From: Deltaproteobacteria bacterium
GTDB lineage: Bacteria; Desulfobacterota; Desulfobacteria; Desulfobacterales; JAFDHS01
Length of the DNA: 24,247 nt
Assembly: GCA_019308655.1 (NCBI GenBank)
Contig: JAFDHS010000012.1
Coordinates: 1-24,247, forward strand
Direction of reading: 5' to 3'
Shown here: positions 11,349-23,238 of the stretch, piece by piece
Numbering within the stretch: the first letter of the stretch is position 1
Layout: each line of letters begins with the position of its first letter
Program-made: the position numbers and the translations under genes
The notes under the pieces: model-generated
What the model saw: only the letters and a program-made list of their open reading frames with translations
The model's database searches: none
What the model was told of the DNA's origin: nothing

Positions 11349-11714
11349 ATGTACGTTGTAATTTTTCTTCTGATAGCTGTAATTGCCGGTTTTTCCCCTT
11401 TCATCGTTTCTAAGCTTGTTCGTCCTAAATCCCCCACTTCTGAGAGAACCCGTACGACATATGAATGTGGCGCATTGCCCTATGGTGAGGCTTGGAACTT
11501 TCGATTCGGTATTGCCTACTACCTATATGCCTTGATTTTTTTGGCTTTTGACGTTGATATCCTTTATCTGTTTCCGGTTGCCGCTGCTTTTGATAAGGTG
11601 CCTGGATTCCGGGGTATTGTTGAGTTGCTTATTTTTGTAGGTATCTTATCCTTGGCAATTGTCTATGCCTGGAACAAAGGAGTCTTTACGTGGAAGAAAA
11701 AAGAGGTCGCTTAA
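11349..11714 (+). CDS. nuoA: Complex I-like subunit A
   Basis: Three TM segments, TYECG loop, [30 protein letters not shown]. Confidence 0.96.
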
Positions 11715-12325
11715 CCCTTGATTCCTATGCAAAGGATCTCAAGGATAAGCTAAGGAAAGAAGTATCCGTTATACCCGGTGAAACGGATGCCGGGCCGTTG
11801 ACTCGTTTCGAGTTGACAGATAGAATAATAGATTTGTGTCGGGCAAATTCACTTTGGCCCATGACATTTGGAATTGCTTGTTGCGCCATTGAAATGATGG
11901 CGGCGGGAATGGCACGCTTTGATATTTCTCGATACGGATCAGAGGTTTTTCGACCCTCTCCCCGGCAGAGTGATCTTATGATTGTTGCGGGTACCGTGAA
12001 TAAAAAATTCGCTCCGATTTTGGTGACGCTTTATGAGCAAATGCCTTCTCCTAAATGGGTTATTGCTATGGGTAACTGCGCGATATCGGGCGGCCCGTTT
12101 GCTCCCAAAGAGAATTATAATATAATTGAAGGCGTGGATAAGTTGATTCCCGTTGATGTTTATGTGCCTGGTTGTCCCCCCCGTCCCGAAGGGTTGATTG
12201 AGGGGATTCTCAAACTGCAGGAAAAGATCACTAAAGTACGTTATCCTTTTCCCCAGAACAAGATGCCGGCGGAAGATACGGCGGGGATTCAAACCAGATG
12301 GCCAAAATGGGGAAAAGATAAATGA
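11690..12325 (+). CDS. nuoB: Complex I-like subunit B (N2 cluster)
   Basis: [17 protein letters not shown] (tandem Cys), [38 protein letters not shown] start preceded by AAAGGAG. Confidence 0.97.
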
Positions 12326-12849
12326 AATCGATGAATCAGTTTGTGGATGCTTTGAAGCGTCTGTCCGTTCAGATCAGCGAAGTCGATTACGACAGGCGCG
12401 GCTATCATCTTGAGGTATCGATGGCAGATAATCAGGTGCGTGAGTTTGCCAAAGCCATGCTTGATAACGAATTTTATTTGGTGTTTGTTACGGCGAATCA
12501 CGTAAAACCCGCCATTGAGGTTGTTTATCAATTTGCTCATTTTAGCACACCCTGTCGAGTATGTGCTCGGGCTTGTGTTGCTGAAGGCGAAAAAATATCT
12601 ACGATATCGGATATTTTTCATGGAGCGGATTGGCATGAGCGGGAGACAAAGGATTTTTTTGGGGTAAATTTTGAAGGGCACCCCAACCTTAAACCGTTGC
12701 TTCTTGCAGAAGATGATGCGGATCTTAAGCCACTCTTAAAGAGTGAAAAAATGTTGAAAAACGTGGAAGAAATCCGTTGGCAGGGAGAAAAGCCCGCTAA
12801 GCCTGCCGCCGCCGGTAAACAGGCTGAACAAAAAGCGGAGCAGAGCTGA
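12322..12849 (+). CDS. nuoC: Complex I-like subunit C
   Basis: [35 protein letters not shown] (ERE.. F.GHP motif). ATGA overlap with nuoB. Confidence 0.94.
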
Positions 12850-12854
12850 TAATC

Positions 12855-13970
12855 ATGAAATCAGAAACGAATACCCAGCAAAACCAATCTTTTACCTTGA
12901 ATATGGGACCGCAACACCCTAGTACGCATGGGGTTTTGCAGGTAATTCTGGAAATGGATGGGGAGTATGTTCTTGATCCTCAGCCGGTTTTGGGCTACAT
13001 CCATCGAATGCACGAAAAGATGGGTGAATCAAGGCCCTGTAGAAAATTTTTGCCGAATACCGGACGAATGGATTATGTTTGTGCCTTGCCTTTCAATCAT
13101 GGCTATGTCGGTCTCATTGAACGGGCGGCAGGAATTGAGGTGCCTCCCCGCGCTGAATACATTCGAGTAATCACTTCGGAATTAAACCGGGTCGCTAGTC
13201 ATCTTCTCTGGCTTGGGGCATTTCTTCTTGATTTGGGTGCCTTTACTCCGATTATGTATTCATTTGATGATAGAGAACAGATTCTTGATATTCTTGAAGA
13301 AATAACCGGATCGAGATTGACTTACTGTTACTTCCGGCCGGGAGGCGTTTACCAGGACATTAGTGATAAATTTATTGAAGGAACCAGGGCTTTTATCAAA
13401 CGAATGCGCAGTCGATTCAGCATTTATGAAAAACTGGTTGCTACAAATATTATTTTTATAAAGCGAGCAGAGGGAGTCGGAGTCATCAGCCCTGATATGG
13501 CTCGGAGATATGGTGTTACCGGCCCTCTTTTGCGAGGTTCAGGCATTTCGTATGACATTCGCAAACAAGAGCCCTATTCGGTTTATTCTGACTTTGATTT
13601 TGATGTCCCGGTGGGGGAAAATGGTGATTCTTTGGATCGCTATAAGGTCAGGGTTCAGGAAATGGAACAGAGTCTGCGGATCATTGAGCAAGCCCTTGAT
13701 AAATTGCCGGAAGGTCCTTATTTGGGTAAGGCTCCGAAAAAAATCAAGTTGCCACCGGGTGATAGTAGCTTTTCAGTTGAAGCGGCGCGTGGAGAACTTG
13801 CATATTATCTTGTAGGTGATGGAAGTGAGATACCCTATCGCTTAAAGATAAGAGTTCCCTCTTATTCCAATTTAAGTGTATTGCCGGAACTGGGCCGGGG
13901 TATACTTTTAGCTGACCTGGTAACGATTATGGGCAGTTTTGATCTGGTTATCCCCGAGATTGACAGATAA
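12855..13970 (+). CDS. nuoD: Complex I-like subunit D (quinone-binding, not a NiFe large subunit)
   Basis: NMGPQHPSTHGVL, GYIHRMHEK, RMDY, ELNRVASHL, EAARGEL, C-terminal DLVIPEIDR. No CxxC Ni-binding motifs. Confidence 0.97.
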   Translation: MKSETNTQQNQSFTLNMGPQHPSTHGVLQVILEMDGEYVLDPQPVLGYIHRMHEKMGESRPCRKFLPNTGRMDYVCALPFNHGYVGLIERAAGIEVPPRAEYIRVITSELNRVASHLLWLGAFLLDLGAFTPIMYSFDDREQILDILEEITGSRLTYCYFRPGGVYQDISDKFIEGTRAFIKRMRSRFSIYEKLVATNIIFIKRAEGVGVISPDMARRYGVTGPLLRGSGISYDIRKQEPYSVYSDFDFDVPVGENGDSLDRYKVRVQEMEQSLRIIEQALDKLPEGPYLGKAPKKIKLPPGDSSFSVEAARGELAYYLVGDGSEIPYRLKIRVPSYSNLSVLPELGRGILLADLVTIMGSFDLVIPEIDR

Positions 13971-13975
13971 AAATT

Positions 13976-14968
13976 ATGGAAATCACATCTTTTTTACCTC
14001 CTGACATTATTCGTATGATTGTTTCCGCAGTTGTCATTATCTCTTTTGTGTTTTTAAACGCTATGGTGATGACGTATGCGGAACGAAAACTCGCGGGACA
14101 CTTTCAGCGTCGTCCGGGACCCATGGAGGTCGGGTCACATGGGCTGTTGCAAGTGATCGTTGATGGTCTAAAACTGATCGGTAAACAGCTTATCCTTCCA
14201 AAGGACGTCGATCGACCTTTGTTTCGGTTAGCTCCTTTACTGGCGTTTATTCCTGTAGTTTTACCTTTTATTGTCATTCCTTTCAGTGAAAAATTGCAGG
14301 TGGCGGATTTGAATATCGGCCTGATTTTTATCCTGGCGATTTCATCCCTGAACGGTATGGCTGTCCTGATTGCGGGCTGGAGTTCCAATAATAAATATTC
14401 CTTGTTTGGCGCTTTACGTTCCGTAGCCCAGAATATAGCGTATGAAATTCCTATACTGCTGGTCGTTTTAACGGTTGCCCTGATGGCCAATACGTTTAGC
14501 TTGAAGGGTCTTGTCGAGGCTCAGAGCGGTATGTGGTTTATTCTGCTTCAGCCGGTTGCCTTTATAATTTACTTTATTGCCGGACTGGCGGAGACAAACC
14601 GTGCTCCTTTTGATTTGTCTGAGGCAGAAAGTGAATTAACAGCCGGTTTTCATACCGAATACAGTGGTATGGGATTCAGTCTCTTTTTTCTGGGCGAATA
14701 TGCGAATATGTTTGTCGTATGTTCGATAGCTACAATTCTCTTCCTTGGAGGTTGGCACGGCATTCCCTTGCCGTTCTTGGAATATACCGGGGTCTTCTGG
14801 TTTTTGTTAAAAGTGTACGCGCTTTTATTTGTTATGATCTGGTGCAGATGGACCTATCCTCGTGTGCGTTTTGACCAGTTGATGAATCTGGCTTGGAAGT
14901 ATTTGATTCCGTTTTCTCTGGTTAATTTTATAATAACAGCAATAGTACTGGTAATCGTGAAACTATGA
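13976..14968 (+). CDS. nuoH: Complex I-like subunit H
   Basis: AERKLAGHFQRRPGP, VDGLKLIGKQ, GWSSNNKYSLFGALR, AETNRAPFDLSEAESELTAGFHTEYSG, RWTYPRVRFDQLM. Confidence 0.97.
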   Translation: MEITSFLPPDIIRMIVSAVVIISFVFLNAMVMTYAERKLAGHFQRRPGPMEVGSHGLLQVIVDGLKLIGKQLILPKDVDRPLFRLAPLLAFIPVVLPFIVIPFSEKLQVADLNIGLIFILAISSLNGMAVLIAGWSSNNKYSLFGALRSVAQNIAYEIPILLVVLTVALMANTFSLKGLVEAQSGMWFILLQPVAFIIYFIAGLAETNRAPFDLSEAESELTAGFHTEYSGMGFSLFFLGEYANMFVVCSIATILFLGGWHGIPLPFLEYTGVFWFLLKVYALLFVMIWCRWTYPRVRFDQLMNLAWKYLIPFSLVNFIITAIVLVIVKL

Positions 14969-15408
14969 GCGGCTATTTTTCAGAAATCCTAACTGGCGGC
15001 AAGAGTCTTTTGGTGGGTTTAGGTGTAACCTTTAAGGCCATGCTCCAGCCTGTTGTTACCGTGCAGTATCCGCGGGAAAAGACTGATGTAACTAGCTCTA
15101 ACTACCGCGGGCATATTGAGTTGGTTAGAAACCCTGAAACCGGTTCTTTTAAGTGTATTGCCTGTGGCTTGTGTGCCAAGGCGTGTCCTTCTGAATGCAT
15201 CACTGTAAAAAGTGAAAAGAGGGAAGGTGTAAAGGGTAAGGTTTTAACGGTTTTTCAGCTTGATTTTACCAAATGCAGTCTGTGTGGTTCCTGTGTGGAA
15301 GCCTGTAATAAAGGGGCGATAAGATTCTCCCAGGATTACAATATTGCCGGTTTTACCAAAGAAGAGTTTCACTACGATTTGCTTAAACGGCTGGAGGAAA
15401 TGGGATGA
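14965..15408 (+). CDS. nuoI: Complex I-like subunit I (2x[4Fe-4S])
   Basis: VTVQYPRE, CIACGLCAKACP and CSLCGSCVEAC ferredoxin motifs. Confidence 0.95.
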   Translation: MSGYFSEILTGGKSLLVGLGVTFKAMLQPVVTVQYPREKTDVTSSNYRGHIELVRNPETGSFKCIACGLCAKACPSECITVKSEKREGVKGKVLTVFQLDFTKCSLCGSCVEACNKGAIRFSQDYNIAGFTKEEFHYDLLKRLEEMG

Positions 15409-15929
15409 TTTTCTACCGCTATATTGCAGAGTTTATGTTTTTTTTCTTCATTTTTCTTACCTTTGCCGGTGCTTTGCTGGCGGTTAGGACTAGATTATTG
15501 ATGCATGCACTTTTAGGCCTGGCGGTTTCGTTTTTAGGAGTTGCCGGGCTGTATTTTTATCTTGGCAGTTTATTCTTGTCAATGATGCAGATACTTATAT
15601 ATGTGGGGGCTATTTGCATTGTAATCGCTTTTGGTATTATGGTCGGTTATACGCCTGAGCAGTTGAAGGAGAAGAAGATTGCCGGTAAAAACCTGCTGTT
15701 GGGTGTATCTGCCGCTGTTGTCGTATTTTCCTTGTTGTTTGTAGCTATTTGGCGGACTGTCTGGGTTCCGGCTGTAACTCGGGTGGGAGATTTTTCTTTG
15801 GCTTGGCTGGGGCAGAATCTGCTCTACAATTATTGCTTGGCCTTTGAATTGATTTCGGTAGTGCTTCTGGCTGCTATTGTTGGAGCTATAATTCTGGCCG
15901 GTGAAGGAAGGGAGGAAAAGGTTCGATGA
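15405..15929 (+). CDS. nuoJ: Complex I-like subunit J
   Basis: Five TM segments, QILIYVGAICIVIAFGIM, YCLAFELISVVLLAAIVGAIIL. Confidence 0.94.
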   Translation: MIFYRYIAEFMFFFFIFLTFAGALLAVRTRLLMHALLGLAVSFLGVAGLYFYLGSLFLSMMQILIYVGAICIVIAFGIMVGYTPEQLKEKKIAGKNLLLGVSAAVVVFSLLFVAIWRTVWVPAVTRVGDFSLAWLGQNLLYNYCLAFELISVVLLAAIVGAIILAGEGREEKVR

Positions 15930-16243
15930 TGCTGAGCGATAATCTCAATACGTATCTGCTCGTTGCCGTTTTTTTGTTAATCGTTGGAATTTTCGGTATG
16001 ATTCAGCATCGATCTTTTATCGGAATGCTGCTTTCAACCGAACTGATTCTAAGCGGCGCAGGGCTTAATTTTATGGCGTTTAACCGTTTTTTGTCGCCAA
16101 ACCTGGCTGTCGGCCAGATTTTTACCATGTTTATTATGGGGATTGCGGCAGCGGAAGCGGCCATTGGCGTTAGTATTATCCTTGCGGTTTACCGCAAATA
16201 CAAAACTGTTGATCCGGATGAGGTTCACGATTTAAGGGGATAA
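15926..16243 (+). CDS. nuoK: Complex I-like subunit K
   Basis: Three TM segments, MLLSTELILSG, GQIFTMFIMGIAAAEAAIGVSII with both conserved Glu. Confidence 0.95.
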   Translation: MMLSDNLNTYLLVAVFLLIVGIFGMIQHRSFIGMLLSTELILSGAGLNFMAFNRFLSPNLAVGQIFTMFIMGIAAAEAAIGVSIILAVYRKYKTVDPDEVHDLRG

Positions 16244-16399
16244 TGCTCAAAGTGTTTTTTATTGCCTCCTAATGTTTTTTTCACCACAGAGGTCACGTAG
16301 AATTTAAGCGCTTTGCTTGATTACGGACAGCGGCAAAGTTAAATAAATATCTTCGTGTTCCTTATGGCTGATCAAGGGCGAAACTGAGAAGAAAATATA

Positions 16400-17893
16400 A
16401 TGGAAACAATCATCACCAATAAAATTTTATTGACCCCGGCTATTCCCATGATAACTGCTATTTTAATAATGGCTTCAGGGAAAAAGCCGAATTTGAGGGA
16501 GTCTTGGTCAATTATCGGGGCTATACTGACCTTCCTCTCTGTTGTTACCCTTTTGCCCCGGATTCTTGCAGGTGGATCATTTCAGTGTACCCTGTTTACA
16601 CTCTATCCCGGGATTTCGGTCAAATTCCATCTGGATGGTTTAGGCATCCTGTTTGCCGGGACGGCTTCTTTTTTGTGGATTTTAGCCGGTTTTTACTGTA
16701 TCGGCTACATGAGGGGACTCAACGAGCATGCTCAGACACGGTTTTATGTCTGTTATGCCGTGTCGGTCGGCGCTGCCATGGGTGCTGCGTTTGCCGGTAA
16801 TTTGTTTACACTCTACCTATTTTATGAAATCGTTTCTATCTTTACCTATCCGCTGGTTGCTCACCATCAGGATGCTGAAGGGTATGAGGGGTCTAAAAAG
16901 TATATCGTCTATCTGATGTTTACTTCAAAGGCTTTTCTTCTTCCGGCCATGGTTCTGGTTTACCTTCAGTGCGGGACGTTAGATTTTTCAACGACCGGTA
17001 TCGTGAATGGTATTTTTCCTCATGATGCAAGCGGTATCCTGGTTATTGTTACATATTGTCTTTGTTTTTTTGGATTTGCCAAGGCAGGTGTCATGCCGCT
17101 GCACAGCTGGCTGCCTTCGGCCATGGTTGCTCCGACACCGGTCAGTGCCCTTTTACATGCAGTAGTTGTTGTTAAGGTCGGTGTTTTTTCCGTCTGTAGA
17201 GTAATGCTCTCTGTTTTCGGAATCAACTTGTTACAGGGACTTCACCTGGGTATTGTTACAGCCTATTTCGTCTCTTTTACCATTGTCGTGGCCTCGGTGA
17301 TCGCTCTGAGCAAATCCAATCTCAAGGCGAGATTAGCCTATTCGACCGTCAGTCAGCTCTCCTATATAATTTTGGGTGTTGCAATGCTTACGCCAAATTC
17401 TATTACGGGCGGACTGATTCATATTGCCAACCACGCTTTTTCCAAGATTACGCTGTTTTTCTGTGCGGGTGCTATTTTTGTAGCCACCGGCAAAAAGGAC
17501 ATCAAGGAGTTGGGCGGCTTAGGTTATCGGATGCCTTTTACCATGATTGCATTTGGTCTGGCGTCCTTAAGTATGATTGGTGCACCACCGGTTTCCGGCT
17601 TCGTTACCAAATGGTATCTGGCTTTGGGAGCCATGGACTTGCATAATGTTATCCTTTTGGCTGTGCTTCTGGTCAGCAGTCTTTTGAATGCCGGTTATTT
17701 TGTACCCATTTTTCTGCAATCCTTTTACGGTAAACCTTTACCGGCGGATAAATCGGCAACGGGTTCCCTTGAGGCTTCTCCGCTTATAATGTTGATGGTG
17801 GTACCTCTTTTTATAACCGCTGTCGCCTCGGTATTGTTCGGCATTTACCCTGATCTTTTTCTCAATATTATAAACGTACTTGTGGGGAAATGA
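16400..17893 (+). CDS. Extra antiporter-like subunit (Mrp/NuoL-M-N superfamily, 14-TM type without lateral helix)
   Basis: LYLFYEIVS (TM5 Glu), FAKAGVMPLHSWLPSAMVAPTPVSALLHAVVVVKVG (TM7 Lys, TM8 His/Lys), LAYSTVSQLSYI, HIANHAFSKITLFF, GFVTKWYL. It ends shortly after GIYP, with no NuoL-type C-terminal helix. Confidence 0.9.
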   Translation: METIITNKILLTPAIPMITAILIMASGKKPNLRESWSIIGAILTFLSVVTLLPRILAGGSFQCTLFTLYPGISVKFHLDGLGILFAGTASFLWILAGFYCIGYMRGLNEHAQTRFYVCYAVSVGAAMGAAFAGNLFTLYLFYEIVSIFTYPLVAHHQDAEGYEGSKKYIVYLMFTSKAFLLPAMVLVYLQCGTLDFSTTGIVNGIFPHDASGILVIVTYCLCFFGFAKAGVMPLHSWLPSAMVAPTPVSALLHAVVVVKVGVFSVCRVMLSVFGINLLQGLHLGIVTAYFVSFTIVVASVIALSKSNLKARLAYSTVSQLSYIILGVAMLTPNSITGGLIHIANHAFSKITLFFCAGAIFVATGKKDIKELGGLGYRMPFTMIAFGLASLSMIGAPPVSGFVTKWYLALGAMDLHNVILLAVLLVSSLLNAGYFVPIFLQSFYGKPLPADKSATGSLEASPLIMLMVVPLFITAVASVLFGIYPDLFLNIINVLVGK

Positions 17894-18138
17894 TGGCACG
17901 TCTTTTTACTTATTTGAGAGATCACTCTCAGGTTTTGAAATGGCTGTTTTATGTTTTTTTAGCACTCGCAATTGCTTTTGATTTCTTTGCTGAACGGCAT
18001 CAACCTCATTTTTGGGGTGACGGTATCGTTGGCTTCTGGTCCATGTTTGGTATACTCGGCTGTCTGGGGATGATCATTCTTTGCAAAGGTCTTTCTCATG
18101 TCTGGCTTATGAAGGATGAAGATTATTATGATAAATAA
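17890..18138 (+). CDS. Small 2-TM hypothetical membrane protein
   Basis: 82 aa with two hydrophobic segments flanking HQPHFWGDGIVGFW and a C-terminal EDYYDK. It overlaps both neighbouring antiporter-like genes, which suggests translational coupling. Confidence 0.82.
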   Translation: MMARLFTYLRDHSQVLKWLFYVFLALAIAFDFFAERHQPHFWGDGIVGFWSMFGILGCLGMIILCKGLSHVWLMKDEDYYDK

Positions 18139-19897
18139 CAGTATTTTTATCCATCCGGCTACCTATTTTATACTCGGCGCCGTTCTTCTGCCCTTTTTAA
18201 AGCGGTTTAAACTGTTGCAGAAGATTATAATGATTATTATCCCTTTACTGGCATTTTACCAGATAAATTATCTGCCGGATACCTTTGGCGTTTGTGAGTA
18301 TATGGGGTTCAAGCTGATTTTCGGAAAGGTTGACAAGCTGACCTATGTTTTTCTGCATGTCTTTACCTTGATGGCCGTAATCGGCAATGTATATGGCCTC
18401 CATGTCAAAGAAACCGGGCAACGTATGGCCGGTCTTCTGTATGTCGCCGGTTCCCTGGGCGTAACCCTGGCCGGTGATTATTTGACGCTTTTTATATTTT
18501 GGGAGTTGATGGCTTTTGCATCGGTTTTTCTTGTCTGGTATCGTAAGAAGAAACAATCTATTCAGGCGGGTTACCGTTATTTACTGGTCCATACCGCAGG
18601 TGGTTTGATCCTTCTGGGTGGAATATTTTTACGTTATCAAAATATTCATGACCTTAGTTTTACGCAAATCGCAGTCAATGGCGCTACGTTCGCCGACTAC
18701 CTGATTATGATTGGGTTTATGTTGAATGCGGCTGTTCCTCCGATACATGCCTGGTTACCTGATGCCTACCCGGAAGCCACGGTAACGGGAGCTGTTTTCA
18801 TGTGCGCTTTTACGACCAAAACAGCAGTTTATGTTTTGGCGAGAGCCTTCCCCGGATTTGAAGCGCTTGCCATTCTGGGCGCAATAATGACCCTTTACGG
18901 TGTCGGCTATGCTGTGATTGAGAATGATGCCCGGCGGATTTTGGCTTATCACATTGTCAGCCAGGTCGGATATATGGTTTGCGGTATTGGAATCGGCACG
19001 GCTATGGCGATCAATGGTACTTGTGCTCATGCCTATGCTCATATCCTTTATAAGGCCCTGTTGTTTATGGGTGCGGGAGCCGTCCTTGAAATGACGGGTA
19101 GATCAAAGCTGAGCGAATTGGGCGGTCTCTATAAGTACATGCCTCTTACACTTATATTTACGGTGATTGGTGGAATCTCCATTTCCGGCTTTCCCTTTAC
19201 CAGCGGCTTTATCAGTAAATCGATGATCATTGCTGCTGCGGGCGAGCATCACCGTCTGGGTTTAATGATTATGATGACCCTTGCTGCGGTCGGTACATTC
19301 TTGTCGGTAGGTATTAAATTGCCTTATTTTATCTGGTTCGGCAAGGATTCCGGTGTAAAAGCCCAGGATCCTCCATGGAATATGCTGCTGGGTATGTTTA
19401 TTGCCGGGTTTATGTGCTTCTTTTTGGGCGTGTATCCTGAATACCTTTACCGCATGCTGCCGTACGATGTGGCTTATCATCCGTATACGATGTACCATTT
19501 GTCGGAAACCCTCCAGATTCTTGGTTTTACCGGCTTGGGCTTCTACTTCATGGTCAAGTATTTAAAACCCGAAGCGCATGCCAACCTTGATGTAGATTGG
19601 TTTTACCGTAAGGGAGCTCTCGTCTTCATGTGGCTTGCTTCCAAACCGATTGGTATCGCCAATGAATGGGTCGGAAATGTTTATAAAACGGTCGGCTTGC
19701 GATTTACTATGGCGGTAGCTAAAGCGCTTTCATGGTTTGATTGGGAAGGGATCGATTGGGTTATTGACGGATCGGCCAGAGGTGTTGTCAATGGAGGAGA
19801 TCAGATGCGCGGCTTTCAAACGGGTAAAGTCCAGCATTACATTGGGGGCGCTGTAGTTGTTCTGTCAATCGTTCTTATTGTAGTGGTTCTTTTGTAA
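18116..19897 (+). CDS. NuoL-like / Mrp-related antiporter subunit with C-terminal lateral helix
   Basis: FIFWELMA, HAWLPDAYPEA, LAYHIVSQVGYM, HAYAHILYKALLFMGAG, GFISKSMI. The C-terminus has the NuoL-type FD..GID..IDG...R.FQTGKVQHY plus a final TM. Start may be ATG 18128. Confidence 0.88.
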   Translation: MKIIMINNSIFIHPATYFILGAVLLPFLKRFKLLQKIIMIIIPLLAFYQINYLPDTFGVCEYMGFKLIFGKVDKLTYVFLHVFTLMAVIGNVYGLHVKETGQRMAGLLYVAGSLGVTLAGDYLTLFIFWELMAFASVFLVWYRKKKQSIQAGYRYLLVHTAGGLILLGGIFLRYQNIHDLSFTQIAVNGATFADYLIMIGFMLNAAVPPIHAWLPDAYPEATVTGAVFMCAFTTKTAVYVLARAFPGFEALAILGAIMTLYGVGYAVIENDARRILAYHIVSQVGYMVCGIGIGTAMAINGTCAHAYAHILYKALLFMGAGAVLEMTGRSKLSELGGLYKYMPLTLIFTVIGGISISGFPFTSGFISKSMIIAAAGEHHRLGLMIMMTLAAVGTFLSVGIKLPYFIWFGKDSGVKAQDPPWNMLLGMFIAGFMCFFLGVYPEYLYRMLPYDVAYHPYTMYHLSETLQILGFTGLGFYFMVKYLKPEAHANLDVDWFYRKGALVFMWLASKPIGIANEWVGNVYKTVGLRFTMAVAKALSWFDWEGIDWVIDGSARGVVNGGDQMRGFQTGKVQHYIGGAVVVLSIVLIVVVLL

Positions 19898-20015
19898 GGT
19901 TAGGGTGCATCAAAATAATCATTCCGATTGCTTTAGAACAAAGATGCGTGTGATATTTATTCCCCTTAATCTCTGTAAATTCTGACGATGTATTTTTGAA
20001 GAGCTTGGGAAGAAT

Positions 20016-21551
20016 ATGGAAAAATATTTAATATTTAATGCCTTGAATTATCCGATTATAACGGTGTTGCTGGTTGTACCCTTAATCGGGGCGGTGTTTA
20101 CTTTATTTCTGAAAAAAAAGAGCCTTTTGAGAGTTTGGGGTCTGGCAGTTACTTTTCTTACTGCCGCACTATCTCTGCCTCTTTATTTCAATTTTGATTT
20201 GACTACACCTAAATATCAGTTTGTCGAACTTGGGCACTGGTTTCCTTCACTGCATCTTAACTATGTCGTCGGTGTGGATGGTATCAGCGTTCTTTTGGTC
20301 ATGCTGACTACATTTATCATGCCCCTTTGTATTTTATGTTCCTGGACTTATATTAAAGAACGGTTCAAGGAATTTGTCATTGTCATTTTGATTATTGAAA
20401 CAACAATGATCGGGGTTTTTGTCAGCCTGAATACTGTTCTCTTTTATATCTTCTGGGAAGCGATGCTGGTTCCCATGTATCTGATCATTGCCGTATGGGG
20501 CGGGCCGAGAAAGGATTATGCTTCCGTTAAGTTTTTCCTTTATACATTTATCGGCAGTATCTTTTTGCTGGTCTCTATTATTGCGCTTTATATCAAAACC
20601 GGTACTTTCTTCATTCCGGAATTGATGGACCATACCTACGCTTTTGGGTATCAGATGTGGATTTTTCTGGGCTGCACTCTGGCATTTGCAATCAAAATTC
20701 CCATGTTTCCCTTTCATACATGGTTACCTGCTGCACATGTGGAAGCTCCCACGGCCGGTAGTGTGATTCTGGCCAGTATTTTGCTTAAAATGGGTGGGTA
20801 TGGATTTTTACGCTTCTGTTTACCCATAGCGCCGGCGGCCACTTTTTATTGTATGCCCTATTTGTTGGCTTTTTCCATTATATCAATTGTCTATGGTGGC
20901 TATCTGGCCTTAGGACAAAGTGATATTAAAAAACTGATTGCCTACTCCAGTGTCGGGCACATGGGGTTCGTCACCCTGGGTATCTTTTTACTTAATGCGC
21001 AGGGAATAAAAGGGGCCATCTTACAGATGATCAATCACGGTATAACTACCGGTGCTCTGTTTATTTGTATCGGCATCATCTATGAACGTACCCATAGCCG
21101 CGAGCTTAAAGATAATTCGGCTCTGGGAATGATGATGCCCATTTATGTGACCTTTTTAGGGATCTTCTCCTTGTCTTCTCTGGGTTTTCCGGGAACAAAC
21201 AGTTTTGTCGGTGAGTTACTTGTATTGATGGGTGCTTTTTCCGAGAACAAACTGGTTGGTGCGCTTGCCATTCCGGGAGCAATTCTGGCTGCGGCCTATA
21301 TGTTAAGATTGCTTCAGAAGATGGTATGGGCGGATTCAGACGGTCATGCACATCACCACAAACCGGGCCATCACGTATTATCTGATTTGAACGGTCGTGA
21401 AATTTTTACCCTTTTCACTTTGGCGGTTTTTGTTTTCTGGATTGGCTTTCATCCCACTCCTCTGTTGGATGTCATGGATAGTAGTGTAACCCACTTATTG
21501 CATCAGCTAGAAGCCGGAATGCATCATGTCGGTGGTGCAATACATCATTAG
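20016..21551 (+). CDS. nuoM: Complex I-like subunit M
   Basis: VGVDGISVLLVMLT, FYIFWEAMLVPMYLIIAVWG, AFAIKIPMFPFHTWLPAAHVEAPTAGSVILASILLKMGGYG, GFPGTNSFVGE. Confidence 0.96.
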   Translation: MEKYLIFNALNYPIITVLLVVPLIGAVFTLFLKKKSLLRVWGLAVTFLTAALSLPLYFNFDLTTPKYQFVELGHWFPSLHLNYVVGVDGISVLLVMLTTFIMPLCILCSWTYIKERFKEFVIVILIIETTMIGVFVSLNTVLFYIFWEAMLVPMYLIIAVWGGPRKDYASVKFFLYTFIGSIFLLVSIIALYIKTGTFFIPELMDHTYAFGYQMWIFLGCTLAFAIKIPMFPFHTWLPAAHVEAPTAGSVILASILLKMGGYGFLRFCLPIAPAATFYCMPYLLAFSIISIVYGGYLALGQSDIKKLIAYSSVGHMGFVTLGIFLLNAQGIKGAILQMINHGITTGALFICIGIIYERTHSRELKDNSALGMMMPIYVTFLGIFSLSSLGFPGTNSFVGELLVLMGAFSENKLVGALAIPGAILAAAYMLRLLQKMVWADSDGHAHHHKPGHHVLSDLNGREIFTLFTLAVFVFWIGFHPTPLLDVMDSSVTHLLHQLEAGMHHVGGAIHH

Positions 21552-21666
21552 GTTGGAAGTGGTTGTTTTTGTATCTTATCGGTAAAATATGGTTATTTTG
21601 CCCGGCTCATTAAGCTTGGGTTTAACGCTGGTTTTGTTTTTAAAATTTTAGTATTGGGAACTTCGT

Positions 21667-23238
21667 ATGCAGATCACTCTTTTTCTTCCTGAAATAGTTT
21701 TGACTTTCATGGTTTTGGCATTCTTTTTTGTTTCCCTGGGAAAACCCAAAAGCGGTTTTTTGCAAGGATTGGCGCTTGTCCTTTCCGCCGCGGCCATATT
21801 AGCATCCGTAGTCACCTATGGCCAGGAGGGATCACTCTTTTTAGATGTTTACCGGGTGGATGCTTTTTCACAGATATTTAAGGTTCTCATTACATTCGGT
21901 TTATTTCTGGTGATCTATCTGGCGCCGAAACTAACAGGGATCGAAAAAAATTTGCATCCCGAGTTTTATCTTTTTCTGGCTTTAAGTTCACTGGGACTGG
22001 TAATGTTAAGCAGTGCCGTAGAACTGTTGACTATATTACTCTGCCTGGAGATCTCTTCATACGCGATCTATATAATTATACCCCTTCGTAAGAACCATGA
22101 GCATAGGGAACAGATGGAAGCCGGGATTAAATATATCCTTTTCGGTGCGGCAGCTACCGGCGTTACTTTGTACGGTATGAGCTACATTTTTGGTTTGGCG
22201 CATACCACTTATCTTGACGGTTTGGTCAAAGTTCTTCCATCACTGATTCAAAGTCAACCGCTTGCAATTATAGGCATGATAATGATGCTTTGCGGCTTTT
22301 TTTACAAACTGGCCCTTTTCCCCATGCATTTCTGGACTCCGGATGTTTACGAAGGGGCATCTAATGAAACCACCAGCTTTGTAGCTACGCTTCCCAAGGT
22401 TGGTGCTGTTGCTCTGCTTATCCGGCTGGTTTCTCTTACAGGGGTTGATTTAGGACAGTTTACGTGGATACTGGCGACATTTGCCGTCCTGTCAATGACC
22501 CTCGGCAATCTTTCCGCTCTGGTCCAGAATGATATCAAACGTCTTTTGGCATACTCCAGTATTGCTCATGCCGGCTATGTGATGCTGGGTATTCTTTGTG
22601 TCAACGAATTGGGATTGTCTTCAGCGATTTATTATATCGCCGGCTATATGTTGATGAACCTGGCCTGTTTTTACGTTATTTATAACATTGCACCTTCGGG
22701 TAAAAACGTTAGTTTTGTCGACTTGAAAGGTCTATACAAAAATTCTCCTTTGTTGGCCTTTGCTCTTGCCGTAGGGGCATTTGGTATGGCGGGAATACCT
22801 CCAACGATCGGTTTTACCGGTAAGTTCCTTATCTTTACGGGTGCAATCAATAAGGGACTCTATGCCTTGGTGATTTTGGCGGTTATTAATGCCGGAATCT
22901 CTGCTTTCTATTATTTAAAGATGGTTAGAGCCGCTTACTCGACTTCTGGTACACCGATGGCTAAAATCAATCTTGGTTTTTCCACAAGTCTTTTAGGTTT
23001 TGGCCTTATTCTCGCAATTATACTTCTTGGAATTTTCCCGCAAAGTTTTATCGAACTTTCCAGAGAAGCAATTGTGGCAATTTTTTTATTCTTTTGCGCG
23101 TTTTTTTATGGGAATAATCATAGCTTCGGCCATTGTTGTATGGCCGAAATATTGAAAAGGCCGCAGATTACGAAAGAATCAGTAAAATGCCGGGAGTGGA
23201 TTCATCTGATTTTACGATTATGGATAGATCGGGAGTAA
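21667..23238 (+). CDS. nuoN: Complex I-like subunit N (last ~50 aa look like a non-homologous read-through tail)
   Basis: LEISSYAIY, EAGIKYILFG, FYKLALFPMHFWTPDVYEGA, KRLLAYSSIAHAGY, GIPPTIGFTGK, ISAFYYLKMV. Confidence 0.95.
   Translation: MQITLFLPEIVLTFMVLAFFFVSLGKPKSGFLQGLALVLSAAAILASVVTYGQEGSLFLDVYRVDAFSQIFKVLITFGLFLVIYLAPKLTGIEKNLHPEFYLFLALSSLGLVMLSSAVELLTILLCLEISSYAIYIIIPLRKNHEHREQMEAGIKYILFGAAATGVTLYGMSYIFGLAHTTYLDGLVKVLPSLIQSQPLAIIGMIMMLCGFFYKLALFPMHFWTPDVYEGASNETTSFVATLPKVGAVALLIRLVSLTGVDLGQFTWILATFAVLSMTLGNLSALVQNDIKRLLAYSSIAHAGYVMLGILCVNELGLSSAIYYIAGYMLMNLACFYVIYNIAPSGKNVSFVDLKGLYKNSPLLAFALAVGAFGMAGIPPTIGFTGKFLIFTGAINKGLYALVILAVINAGISAFYYLKMVRAAYSTSGTPMAKINLGFSTSLLGFGLILAIILLGIFPQSFIELSREAIVAIFLFFCAFFYGNNHSFGHCCMAEILKRPQITKESVKCREWIHLILRLWIDRE
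23125..23148. other. 9-bp perfect hairpin between convergent nuoN and HisKA genes (possible terminator or pause site)
   Basis: TTCGGCCAT (23125-23133) / ATGGCCGAA (23140-23148) with a 6-nt loop, 20 nt past the HisKA stop. No clear U-tract on either strand. Confidence 0.5.

What the first reader, a model, noticed from the sequence alone, without database searches (positions are those of the whole stretch)
11349..23238. Complex I-like operon with FOUR antiporter-like pumping subunits
Seen: after nuoK there are four separate NuoL/M/N/MrpA/D-superfamily genes (497, 593, 511 and 523 aa), plus an 82-aa membrane protein, in one co-oriented cluster. Established: canonical complex I has three (L, M, N). 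From memory, cassettes with a fourth pumping subunit ('2M' complexes, Chadwick et al. 2018, ISME J) were proposed to translocate an extra proton. Here the extra gene is not a second nuoM. It has NuoL/MrpA-like motifs (APTPVSALLH, H..NHAFSK, GFVTK), lies upstream of the L-like gene, and is coupled to it through a small gene. Inference: an Mrp-derived three-gene module replaced nuoL, giving a higher ion/electron stoichiometry, for example for ferredoxin oxidation or reverse electron transport in an energy-limited anaerobe.
Basis: partly seen in the sequence, partly recalled or inferred. Interest (0 to 1): 0.85.

Follow-up and report, generated by a model that had tools for sequence, protein, structure and literature searches.

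The report
Four-pump complex I without NADH module
This is an intact 13-gene respiratory complex I operon with no NADH-binding module, in which the usual NuoL subunit is replaced by a three-gene cassette (two pump-like subunits and a small membrane protein) shared with Mrp antiporters; this arm design is already published as "green complex I" and is common in genomes, so it is an ordinary, biochemically unstudied member of a known kind.

Summary
On the + strand, 11349-23238 encodes nuoA-B-C-D-H-I-J-K, a 497-aa antiporter-like protein (X497), an 82-aa two-helix membrane protein (S82), a 593-aa antiporter-like protein with a NuoL-type lateral helix (L593), then nuoM and nuoN. There is no nuoEFG.

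X497 and L593 are not NuoL, M, N or classical MrpA/D orthologues. Each falls in its own clade, shared with stand-alone Mrp operons and with rhizobial "green complex I" (Degli Esposti & Martinez-Romero 2016, as cited in PMC9040806). On S. meliloti pSymA I found the same nuoK-X-S-L-nuoM order, at about 54% identity.

The trio occurs in at least 597 species genomes. Of the best 80 loci, 29 are NuoEFG-less operons like this one. This scan has already reported the design on other DNA at least eight times, so it is a new member of a known kind.

Points I could not find in the papers I could search:
- S82 belongs to a large family with no Pfam match (2,706 representative clusters). It lies between the two pump genes in 69 of 70 loci.
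- The L593 lateral helix has canonical length, with no insertion.
- L593 has Asn at the canonical TM7 lysine position.
- Metatranscriptome contigs cover all 13 genes.

Extra pumping stoichiometry and the electron donor remain inference.

The parts
11349..11714 (+). nuoA (121 aa)
   Evidence: PF00507, E 3e-28
11690..12325 (+). nuoB (211 aa). The N2 cluster ligand motifs are present: CC, GNC, GCPP.
   Evidence: PF01058, E 9e-30; sequence read
12322..12849 (+). nuoC (175 aa)
   Evidence: PF00329, E 7e-24
12855..13970 (+). nuoD (371 aa). It is the quinone-reductase type: the HGV and DYV motifs are present and there are no NiFe cysteine motifs.
   Evidence: PF00346, E 5e-95; sequence read
13976..14968 (+). 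nuoH (330 aa). It follows nuoD directly, so there is no nuoEFG.
   Evidence: PF00146, E 3e-122
14965..15408 (+). nuoI (147 aa), a 2x[4Fe-4S] ferredoxin-like subunit
   Evidence: Fer4 families
15405..15929 (+). nuoJ (174 aa)
   Evidence: PF00499, E 5e-30
15926..16243 (+). nuoK (105 aa)
   Evidence: PF00420, E 4e-21
16400..17893 (+). X497: antiporter-like subunit with a NuoL/MrpA-type core (E143, K228, K259, H341/H345/K349, K404). It has no lateral helix.
   Evidence: NF006236, 739 bits, above the cut-off of 663. Its clade of 81 sequences is separate from NuoL/MrpA/NuoM/NuoN/MrpD. Key residues.
17890..18138 (+). S82: two-TM hairpin protein with a conserved C-terminal EDYYD motif. It is the third member of the cassette.
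   Evidence: No Pfam match. AF2 pLDDT 92.8, helices 13-33 and 49-73. Found between X497-like and L593-like genes in 69 of 70 loci. 2,706 representative clusters.
18116..19897 (+). L593: antiporter-like subunit with TM15 (459-478), lateral helix (495-565) and TM16 (572-592). It has Asn204 at the canonical TM7 lysine position.
   Evidence: NF009310, 749 bits, above the cut-off of 564. AF2 pLDDT 89. Foldseek gives full-length matches to MrpA, NdhF and NuoL. Key residues.
20016..21551 (+). nuoM (511 aa). TM12 carries Glu400, as in NuoM.
   Evidence: TIGR01972, 585 bits; falls in the NuoM clade; residue
21667..23238 (+). nuoN (523 aa)
   Evidence: TIGR01770, 344 bits; falls in the NuoN clade

Best explanation
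The operon encodes a NuoEFG-less ('headless') complex I. Its Q-module and proximal membrane part (NuoA, B, C, D, H, I, J, K) and NuoM and NuoN are ordinary. Its distal end is of the 'green complex I' type: canonical NuoL is replaced by a portable cassette of X497 (a NuoL/MrpA-like 14-helix core), S82 (a two-helix protein) and L593 (a divergent core that carries the lateral clamp helix and TM16).

Inferred mechanism. An unidentified low-potential donor, most likely reduced ferredoxin, feeds the NuoI/NuoB clusters, and menaquinone is reduced at NuoD/NuoH. The resulting charge and conformational wave then runs along four antiporter-like subunits instead of three. This would allow about one more H+ per 2 e-. 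In reverse, it would let more ion-motive force drive ferredoxin reduction. S82 is probably a structural subunit at or near the X497/L593 pair. The most likely physical order is NuoN-NuoM-X497-L593, with the L593 helix reaching back over two neighbours.
For: Gene content and tight spacing with overlaps.

The same 13-gene order occurs in 3 other families of the same order and in 29 of the best 80 loci from species genomes.

X497 and L593 each fall in a clade that holds both Mrp-context and Nuo-context copies, apart from the canonical subunits. The Nuo-context X497 copies form one clade, SH-aLRT 96.

S. meliloti pSymA has nuoK-[487 aa]-[84 aa]-[586 aa]-nuoM at about 54% identity. The published description of green complex I is in PMC9040806.

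The proton-path residues are complete in X497 and mostly kept in L593.

L593 models as a 16-TM NuoL/MrpA-like protein with a 71-residue lateral helix.

NuoD and NuoB are of the quinone-reductase type.

The genome holds no NuoF (the only Complex1_51K match is RnfC), no canonical NuoL, and no MrpG or MnhB.

No terminator-like site lies in the intergenic gaps.

Metatranscriptome contigs at 90-99% identity cover every gene. One spans the X497 end, all of S82 and the L593 start (17805-18209). Another covers the whole nuoK-X497 gap and 89 nt of X497 (16231-16488) but only 13 nt of nuoK.
Against: No protein-level evidence exists for any complex of this type.

The lateral helix has canonical length (about 106 A). 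The tail from the helix-start motif to the C-terminus has a median of 103 aa in Nuo loci and 106 aa in Mrp loci. It therefore cannot span three further subunits, and the assembly and order of the four pumps is unproven.

L593 lacks the canonical TM7 lysine (N204), so it may not pump in the standard way.

The RNA-library contigs may contain DNA, and they come from close relatives, not necessarily this strain.

The genome is only 80.5% complete, so a separate NuoEFG or Mrp set could be unassembled.

The stoichiometry and the donor are pure inference.
Confidence: 0.8

Rival explanations
1. Same composition but a different order. L593 sits next to NuoM exactly as NuoL does, with its helix over NuoM and NuoN. 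X497 is then an add-on at the far distal tip, held by S82 and outside the reach of the lateral helix.
For: The lateral helix has canonical NuoL length and no insertion. According to PMC9040806, the homologous helix gains 26 residues where a second NuoM is present, which suggests that the helix measures the NuoM/NuoN stretch. In the bd-oxidase-linked version (L058), L593 has lost the helix while the X497/S82/L593 trio is kept, so the helix is not needed to hold X497.
Against: In the stand-alone Mrp operon the helix has the same length and there are exactly two other pump subunits (D1 and X497). This fits L593 lying distal to both. The gene order C-D1-X-S-L mirrors that arrangement.
Confidence: 0.3
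2. The cassette turns the enzyme into a sodium-coupled machine. The Mrp-derived pair exchanges or exports Na+, so the complex builds or uses a sodium gradient and does not simply pump one more proton.
For: The cassette's closest relatives sit in Mrp-type cation/proton antiporter operons. L593 has an unusual TM7 (Asn in place of Lys). The host lives in marine or estuarine sediment. An ion-pumping pyrophosphatase and Rnf are also present.
Against: In solved Mrp structures the proposed Na+ site lies in the small-subunit part, as discussed in PMC7419157. That part (MrpB/E/F/G, MbhD/E) is absent from this operon and was not found in the genome. X497 keeps the full proton-path residue set.
Confidence: 0.12
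3. X497-S82-L593 is an independent transporter that merely lies inside the nuo operon. Complex I here would have only NuoM and NuoN as pumps.
For: The same three genes work in other host complexes (Mrp, and a bd-like oxidase cluster). There is a 156-nt gap between nuoK and X497.
Against: Complex I would then lack any L-type subunit and any lateral helix. The position between nuoK and nuoM is conserved across several phyla in 37 of the best 80 loci. No terminator-like site lies in the gaps. An RNA-library contig covers the whole 156-nt gap and runs into X497, with only 13 nt inside nuoK.
Confidence: 0.04

Closest known systems
'Green complex I' of Rhizobium/Sinorhizobium and other Alphaproteobacteria (Degli Esposti & Martinez-Romero 2016, as summarised in PMC9040806 and PMC7415380)
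   Same: NuoL is replaced by the same two Mrp-type subunits, in the same nuoK-X-S-L-nuoM-nuoN order. The small protein is present too: it is annotated as an 84-aa 'hypothetical protein' on pSymA. X497 and L593 are about 54% identical to the pSymA proteins and fall in the same clades.
   Different: The rhizobial operon carries nuoEFG (an NADH module) and is rearranged: nuoJK-X-S-L-MN-ABCDEFG, with nuoHI divergent. The window is colinear (A-B-C-D-H-I-J-K-X-S-L-M-N) and has no nuoEFG. Its copies belong to a separate sub-clade of 25 sequences (support 99) made of Desulfobacterota and Verrucomicrobiota.
NuoEFG-less Nuo of sulfate reducers (D. magneticus, D. gigas; Pereira et al. 2011, as cited in PMC4287179)
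   Same: The nuo operon has no nuoEFG, and ferredoxin has been proposed as the donor. Desulfovibrionaceae loci in my sample have the same 13-gene layout (L035, L044).
   Different: The text of that paper that I could read does not mention the two Mrp-type subunits or the small protein.
Mbh-type Mrp antiporter with three D-like subunits (mrpE-F-G-mbhD-mbhE/mnhB-mrpC-D1-X-S-L)
   Same: It contains the same X-S-L cassette at 45-52% identity, and the L593 tail (lateral helix plus TM16) has the same length.
   Different: It has no redox module. It has MrpC/E/F/G/B, MbhD/E and a third pump, D1. None of these is in the window or was found in its genome.
'2M' complex I (Chadwick et al. 2018; I could not read the paper, and know it from memory and from citations in PMC9040806 and PMC7419157)
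   Same: It also has four antiporter-like subunits in one complex I cassette.
   Different: There the extra subunit is a second NuoM, and NuoL carries an insertion of about 26 residues in its lateral helix. Here there is one NuoM, no canonical NuoL and no insertion.
Complex_I_3 and TO_2 of Ca. Manganitrophaceae (PMC9040806)
   Same: They use the same two MrpD-like subunits. I found X497-like, L593-like and S82-like genes next to a bd-like oxidase in a Manganitrophaceae genome (L058).
   Different: Complex_I_3 has five pumps and a lengthened helix. In TO_2 the L593 homologue lacks the helix, and the host enzyme is an oxidase.

Membership tests
Green complex I (rhizobial type) | Canonical NuoL is replaced by two MrpD-like/Mrp-type antiporter subunits placed between nuoK and nuoM | tested here: met
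   No TIGR01974 (NuoL) match reaches the cut-off anywhere in the genome.
Green complex I (rhizobial type) | Orthology of the two subunits to the rhizobial ones (same clade) | tested here: met
   For X497, all Nuo-context copies including the rhizobial ones form one clade, SH-aLRT 96. For L593, all copies share one family clade with support 100, but the inner branching is poorly resolved.
Green complex I (rhizobial type) | Rearranged operon (nuoJK...MN before nuoA-G, nuoHI apart) | tested here: not met
   The window is colinear, A-B-C-D-H-I-J-K-X-S-L-M-N. The pSymA order is shown.
Green complex I (rhizobial type) | NADH-oxidising module NuoEFG is part of the operon | tested here: not met
   nuoH follows nuoD after 5 nt. 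The only Complex1_51K match in the genome is RnfC. The genome is 80.5% complete.
2M complex I (Chadwick 2018) | A second NuoM-clade subunit | tested here: not met
   Only M511 falls in the NuoM clade.
2M complex I (Chadwick 2018) | An insertion of about 26 aa that lengthens the lateral helix | tested here: not met
   The helix spans residues 495-565 (71 residues). The tail from the helix-start motif to the C-terminus is 100-109 aa in all 22 Nuo11 copies in which the motif was found. L593 covers the NuoL models end to end without extra length.
Mrp (CPA3) antiporter | Small subunits MrpB/C/E/F/G encoded together with the pump subunits | tested here: not met
   None is in the window. PF03334 and PF04039 were not found in the genome.
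Complex I (NDH-1) core, 11-subunit form | NuoA, B, C, D, H, I, J, K, M and N are present, with a quinone-type NuoD and N2 cluster ligands in NuoB | tested here: met
Complex I (NDH-1) core, 11-subunit form | The subunits assemble into one complex that pumps ions | not testable with these tools
   This needs purification, cryo-EM or multimer modelling.

The most novel reading that the evidence does not exclude
X497-S82-L593 is a portable 'two-pump cassette', and its small member S82 is an obligatory structural subunit that has not been described. S82 is a two-helix hairpin with a conserved EDYYD C-terminus, it matches no Pfam family, and its family has about 2,700 representative clusters. The cassette plugs into at least three different machines: the Mrp antiporter, complex I (with or without NuoEFG) and a bd-like oxidase. 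Because the clamp helix keeps canonical length, the four-pump arm would be held together in a way not seen in any solved complex I, with S82 as the likely adaptor.
Probability: 0.5. Interest if true: 0.5.

Novelty: new member of a known kind. Interest (0 to 1): 0.35.

Why it matters
Complexes of this type are probably the main quinone-reducing (or ferredoxin-reducing) ion pump of many sulfate reducers, syntrophs and Verrucomicrobiota in sediments. None has been purified. A fourth pump subunit would change the energy budget of organisms that live near the thermodynamic limit. It would also give a natural test of how far the coupling wave of complex I can travel. The conserved small subunit and the unextended clamp helix are concrete questions for structural work. 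This window itself adds only one more example.

Tried and rejected
- I could not read Chadwick 2018 or Pereira 2011; neither is held.
- Full-text searches for four-pump or MrpD-like complex I returned only PMC9040806 and reviews.
- Moparthi & Hagerhall 2011 (PMC3144371) does not mention extra pump subunits.
- S82 gave nothing in Pfam or NCBIfam, PDB sequences or PDB folds. hhalign against NuoA/J/K, MrpC/E/F/G and MbhD/E gave probabilities below 8%. The protein atlas returned only 'hypothetical protein' clusters.
- The promoter and terminator scan gave counts equal to the shuffled controls, so it is uninformative.
- The L593 tree did not resolve whether the cassette moved from Mrp to Nuo or the other way.
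I rebuilt it without that row.
- A cluster of 9 gappy rows in the FastTree overview is an alignment artefact. The 4 X497 rows and 1 L593 row among them were left out of the later trees.
- Rejected: a second nuoM.
- Rejected: a hydrogenase-type module, because NuoD has no NiFe cysteines.
- Rejected: pairing with an Mrp elsewhere in the genome.
Full report
**1. What is in the sequence**

The + strand from 11349 to 23238 carries thirteen co-oriented ORFs. Pfam and NCBIfam identify them as follows.
- NuoA, B, C, D, H, I, J and K come first.
- A 497-aa PF00361 protein (X497, 16400-17893) follows.
- An 82-aa protein with no family match (S82, 17890-18138) is next.
- A 593-aa PF00361 protein (L593, 18116-19897) follows it.
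- NuoM (511 aa; TIGR01972, 585 bits) and NuoN (523 aa; TIGR01770, 344 bits) close the operon.

nuoH follows nuoD directly, so there is no nuoEFG. S82 overlaps X497 by 4 nt and L593 by 23 nt. Longer gaps lie between nuoK and X497 (156 nt), between L593 and nuoM (118 nt) and between nuoM and nuoN (115 nt). None holds a terminator-like site, although that scan did not differ from shuffled sequence.

NuoD has the quinone-site His and Tyr motifs and no NiFe cysteines. NuoB has the N2 cluster ligands. The core is therefore a quinone reductase, not a hydrogenase.

**2. What the two odd pump genes are**

X497 and L593 pass the curated cut-offs of two NCBIfam equivalogs named 'cation/H+ antiporter subunit D' (NF006236, 739 bits; NF009310, 749 bits). 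Both are far below the NuoL cut-offs.

I built a tree of 281 antiporter-like proteins. It included E. coli and Ensifer NuoL/M/N and two Ensifer MrpA/MrpD pairs. The results were:
- X497-type proteins form one clade of 81 (local support 99).
- L593-type proteins form another clade of 74 (support 100, on a long stem).
- Both clades are separate from the canonical NuoL+MrpA, NuoM, NuoN and MrpD clades.
- M511 and N523 sit inside the NuoM and NuoN clades.

A residue map shows that X497 has the complete NuoL/MrpA-type set: E143, K228, K259, H341/H345/K349 and K404, plus PTPVSALLHA after TM7. L593 keeps E130, K235, H305/H309/K313 and K368. At the canonical TM7 lysine it has Asn204, and this Asn is nearly invariant in its family.

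AlphaFold2 with 47 homologues gives a confident model of L593 (pLDDT 89). It has 14 core helices, TM15 (459-478), one continuous lateral helix (495-565; 71 residues, about 106 A) and TM16 (572-592). Foldseek aligns the model over its full length with MrpA, NdhF and NuoL. The closest PDB sequences are MbsH' and MbhH of Pyrococcus.

**3. The cassette and its hosts**

S82 homologues occur in 17 of 41 genomes sampled from the window's order. The surrounding genes fall into two contexts.
- The identical 13-gene nuo operon occurs in three other families, at 57-77% protein identity for the four pump subunits.
- A stand-alone Mrp operon, mrpE-F-G-mbhD-mbhE/mnhB-mrpC-D1-X-S-L, occurs in seven genomes.

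A pattern scan of one genome per species found at least 597 loci that encode an X497 relative. I classified the best 80 by gene context.
- 29 are NuoEFG-less nuo operons like this one. They come from Desulfobacterota (Syntrophus, Desulfovibrionaceae, Desulfopila, Desulfobulbus, Desulfocapsa and others), Verrucomicrobiota/Opitutia and Marinimicrobia.
- 8 are nuo operons with nuoEFG. They come from Ensifer, Rhizobium, Leisingera, Inquilinaceae, Moritella, Acidobacteriota and Nitrospiria.
- 38 are Mrp operons. They come from many bacteria and also from ANME-2, Methanosarcinales and Archaeoglobaceae.
- 5 could not be classified. Two of these, from Ca. Manganitrophaceae and another Nitrospirota genome, are a third host context. 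There an X497-like gene, an L593-like gene that ends just after the start of the lateral helix and an S82-like gene precede a cytochrome bd-like/cytochrome c fusion, among c-type cytochromes. This matches 'TO_2' of PMC9040806.

**4. The small protein**

A profile built from S82 finds a family member between the X497-like and L593-like genes in 69 of 70 loci where both are present on one strand. The counts are 34/34 Mrp, 27/27 NuoEFG-less and 6/6 NuoEFG.

The family shares two hydrophobic helices, a His-rich loop, a Lys after helix 2 and a C-terminal EDYYD motif. AF2 gives a confident hairpin (pLDDT 92.8).

The family has no consistent Pfam match in any of 55 members. It has no PDB relative by sequence or fold. 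It shows no profile similarity to NuoA/J/K, MrpC/E/F/G or MbhD/E. Where a source names it, it is called 'hypothetical' or is mislabelled.

A profile search of 1.84 billion representative proteins finds 2,706 clusters at E <= 0.001 and 1,305 at E <= 1e-10. The best 150 listed are stand-alone proteins of 70-167 aa.

**5. Direction of evolution**

I rooted the X497 tree with D1 and NuoL. All 39 Nuo-context and TO_2-context copies form one clade (SH-aLRT 96), nested among Mrp-context copies. The window sits in a sub-clade of 25 NuoEFG-less copies (support 99). This fits a single capture of the cassette from an Mrp.

The root edge is weak (62). The L593 tree, which has a very long outgroup branch, does not resolve the polarity. 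I therefore treat 'the cassette is shared with Mrp' as shown and 'the cassette is derived from Mrp' as likely.

**6. Comparison with what is known**

This scan's earlier notes pointed to 'green complex I', and I checked that lead. [quoted passage not shown] PMC7415380 summarises the original 2016 paper.

On S. meliloti pSymA I found nuoJ-nuoK-[487 aa 'antiporter subunit D family']-[84 aa hypothetical]-[586 aa 'Na+/H+ antiporter subunit D']-nuoM-nuoN-nuoA-B-C-D-E-F-G, with nuoHI divergent. X497 and L593 are 54% identical to the two pSymA proteins.

The membrane-arm design is therefore published. The window differs from the rhizobial type in two ways: it has no nuoEFG, and it keeps the colinear gene order.

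NuoEFG-less nuo operons of sulfate reducers are also known (PMC4287179). The text I could read does not mention the extra subunits.

The '2M' type fails both of its defining features here. There is no second NuoM, and the helix has no insertion.

**7. How it most likely works**

Shown:
- The operon holds a complete Q-module and proximal membrane part, plus four antiporter-like subunits. X497, NuoM and NuoN keep the canonical charged residues; L593 keeps most of them but lacks the TM7 lysine.
- Only one lateral-helix subunit is encoded.
- The assembled genome (80.5% complete) has no canonical NuoL, NuoF, MrpG or MnhB. Its other PF00361 genes are Hyf-like fragments, and its only NuoF-like domain is RnfC.
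- Contigs from four metatranscriptomes (wetland, cold seep, marine sediment) match at 90-99% identity and cover all thirteen genes. One spans the X497 end, all of S82 and the L593 start. Another covers the whole nuoK-X497 gap and 89 nt of X497, but reaches only 13 nt into nuoK. RNA libraries can contain DNA, so this suggests expression but does not prove it.

Inferred:
- Ferredoxin, or another low-potential carrier, is the donor.
- All thirteen proteins form one complex.
- The complex moves about one more ion per turnover, or works in reverse.

Subunit order is open. The tail from the helix-start motif to the C-terminus has the same length in Nuo and Mrp contexts (medians 103 and 106 aa), and the helix has canonical NuoL length. 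It can therefore span two neighbours, not three. In the Mrp that fits the order L593-X497-D1. If the same order holds here, it gives NuoN-NuoM-X497-L593, with TM16 landing one subunit short of its usual place. The alternative is L593 on NuoM with X497 at the tip. That alternative is favoured by the helix-less TO_2 version and by the reported 26-residue insertion where a second NuoM is present. I cannot decide between the two with single-chain tools.

**8. Verdict**

This is a real and intact operon. The design is published (for rhizobia and Manganitrophaceae), common in genomes, and already reported several times by this scan on other DNA. It is a new member of a known kind.

The points worth carrying forward are the universally linked but unannotated S82 family, the unextended clamp helix, the Lys-to-Asn change in L593, and the use of the cassette in three different host machines.

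Noticed in passing
L058:8953-15031 (Ca. Manganitrophaceae, OY970371.1); also L066: This is a third host for the cassette. An X497-like gene (515 aa), an L593-like gene that stops just after the start of the lateral helix (514 aa, no TM16) and an S82-like gene (115 aa, ending EDYYD) are followed by a cytochrome bd subunit-I-like/cytochrome c fusion and flanked by c-type cytochromes. It matches 'TO_2' of PMC9040806. Here the gene order is X-L-S, not X-S-L.
   Followed up: partly
window:18116-19897 (L593), residue 204: The whole L593 family has Asn where every canonical antiporter-like subunit (NuoL/M/N, MrpA/D, X497, D1) has the TM7 lysine. The partner TM5 Glu (E130) is invariant.
   Followed up: partly
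window:3536-5557 (- strand): A 673-aa membrane ion-pumping pyrophosphatase (PF03030, E 2.5e-262) lies 6 kb upstream of the nuo operon, among housekeeping genes (pta, CarD, pth, L25, prs, ispE-like kinase, serA).
   Followed up: no
G000 contigs C428 (L011), C8 (L012) and C114 (L027): The genome's other energy-converting membrane complexes are fragments of a Hyf-type (hydrogenase-4-like) complex (HyfB-like on C428; NuoH-like, HyfF-like and NuoC-like on C8) and an rnfC-D-G-E-A cluster preceded by apbE and a ferredoxin gene on C114.
   Followed up: partly
window:16244-16399: The nuoK-X497 gap is 156 nt here but only about 27-66 nt in the three closest relatives (L013-L015). Metatranscriptome contigs of close relatives carry a 4-nt insertion after 16258.
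   Followed up: no
L099 (uncultured betaproteobacterium) and L065 (Desulfobacteraceae): Some genomes place an Mrp operon with the cassette next to a second nuo-like or second Mrp gene set on the same contig.
   Followed up: no
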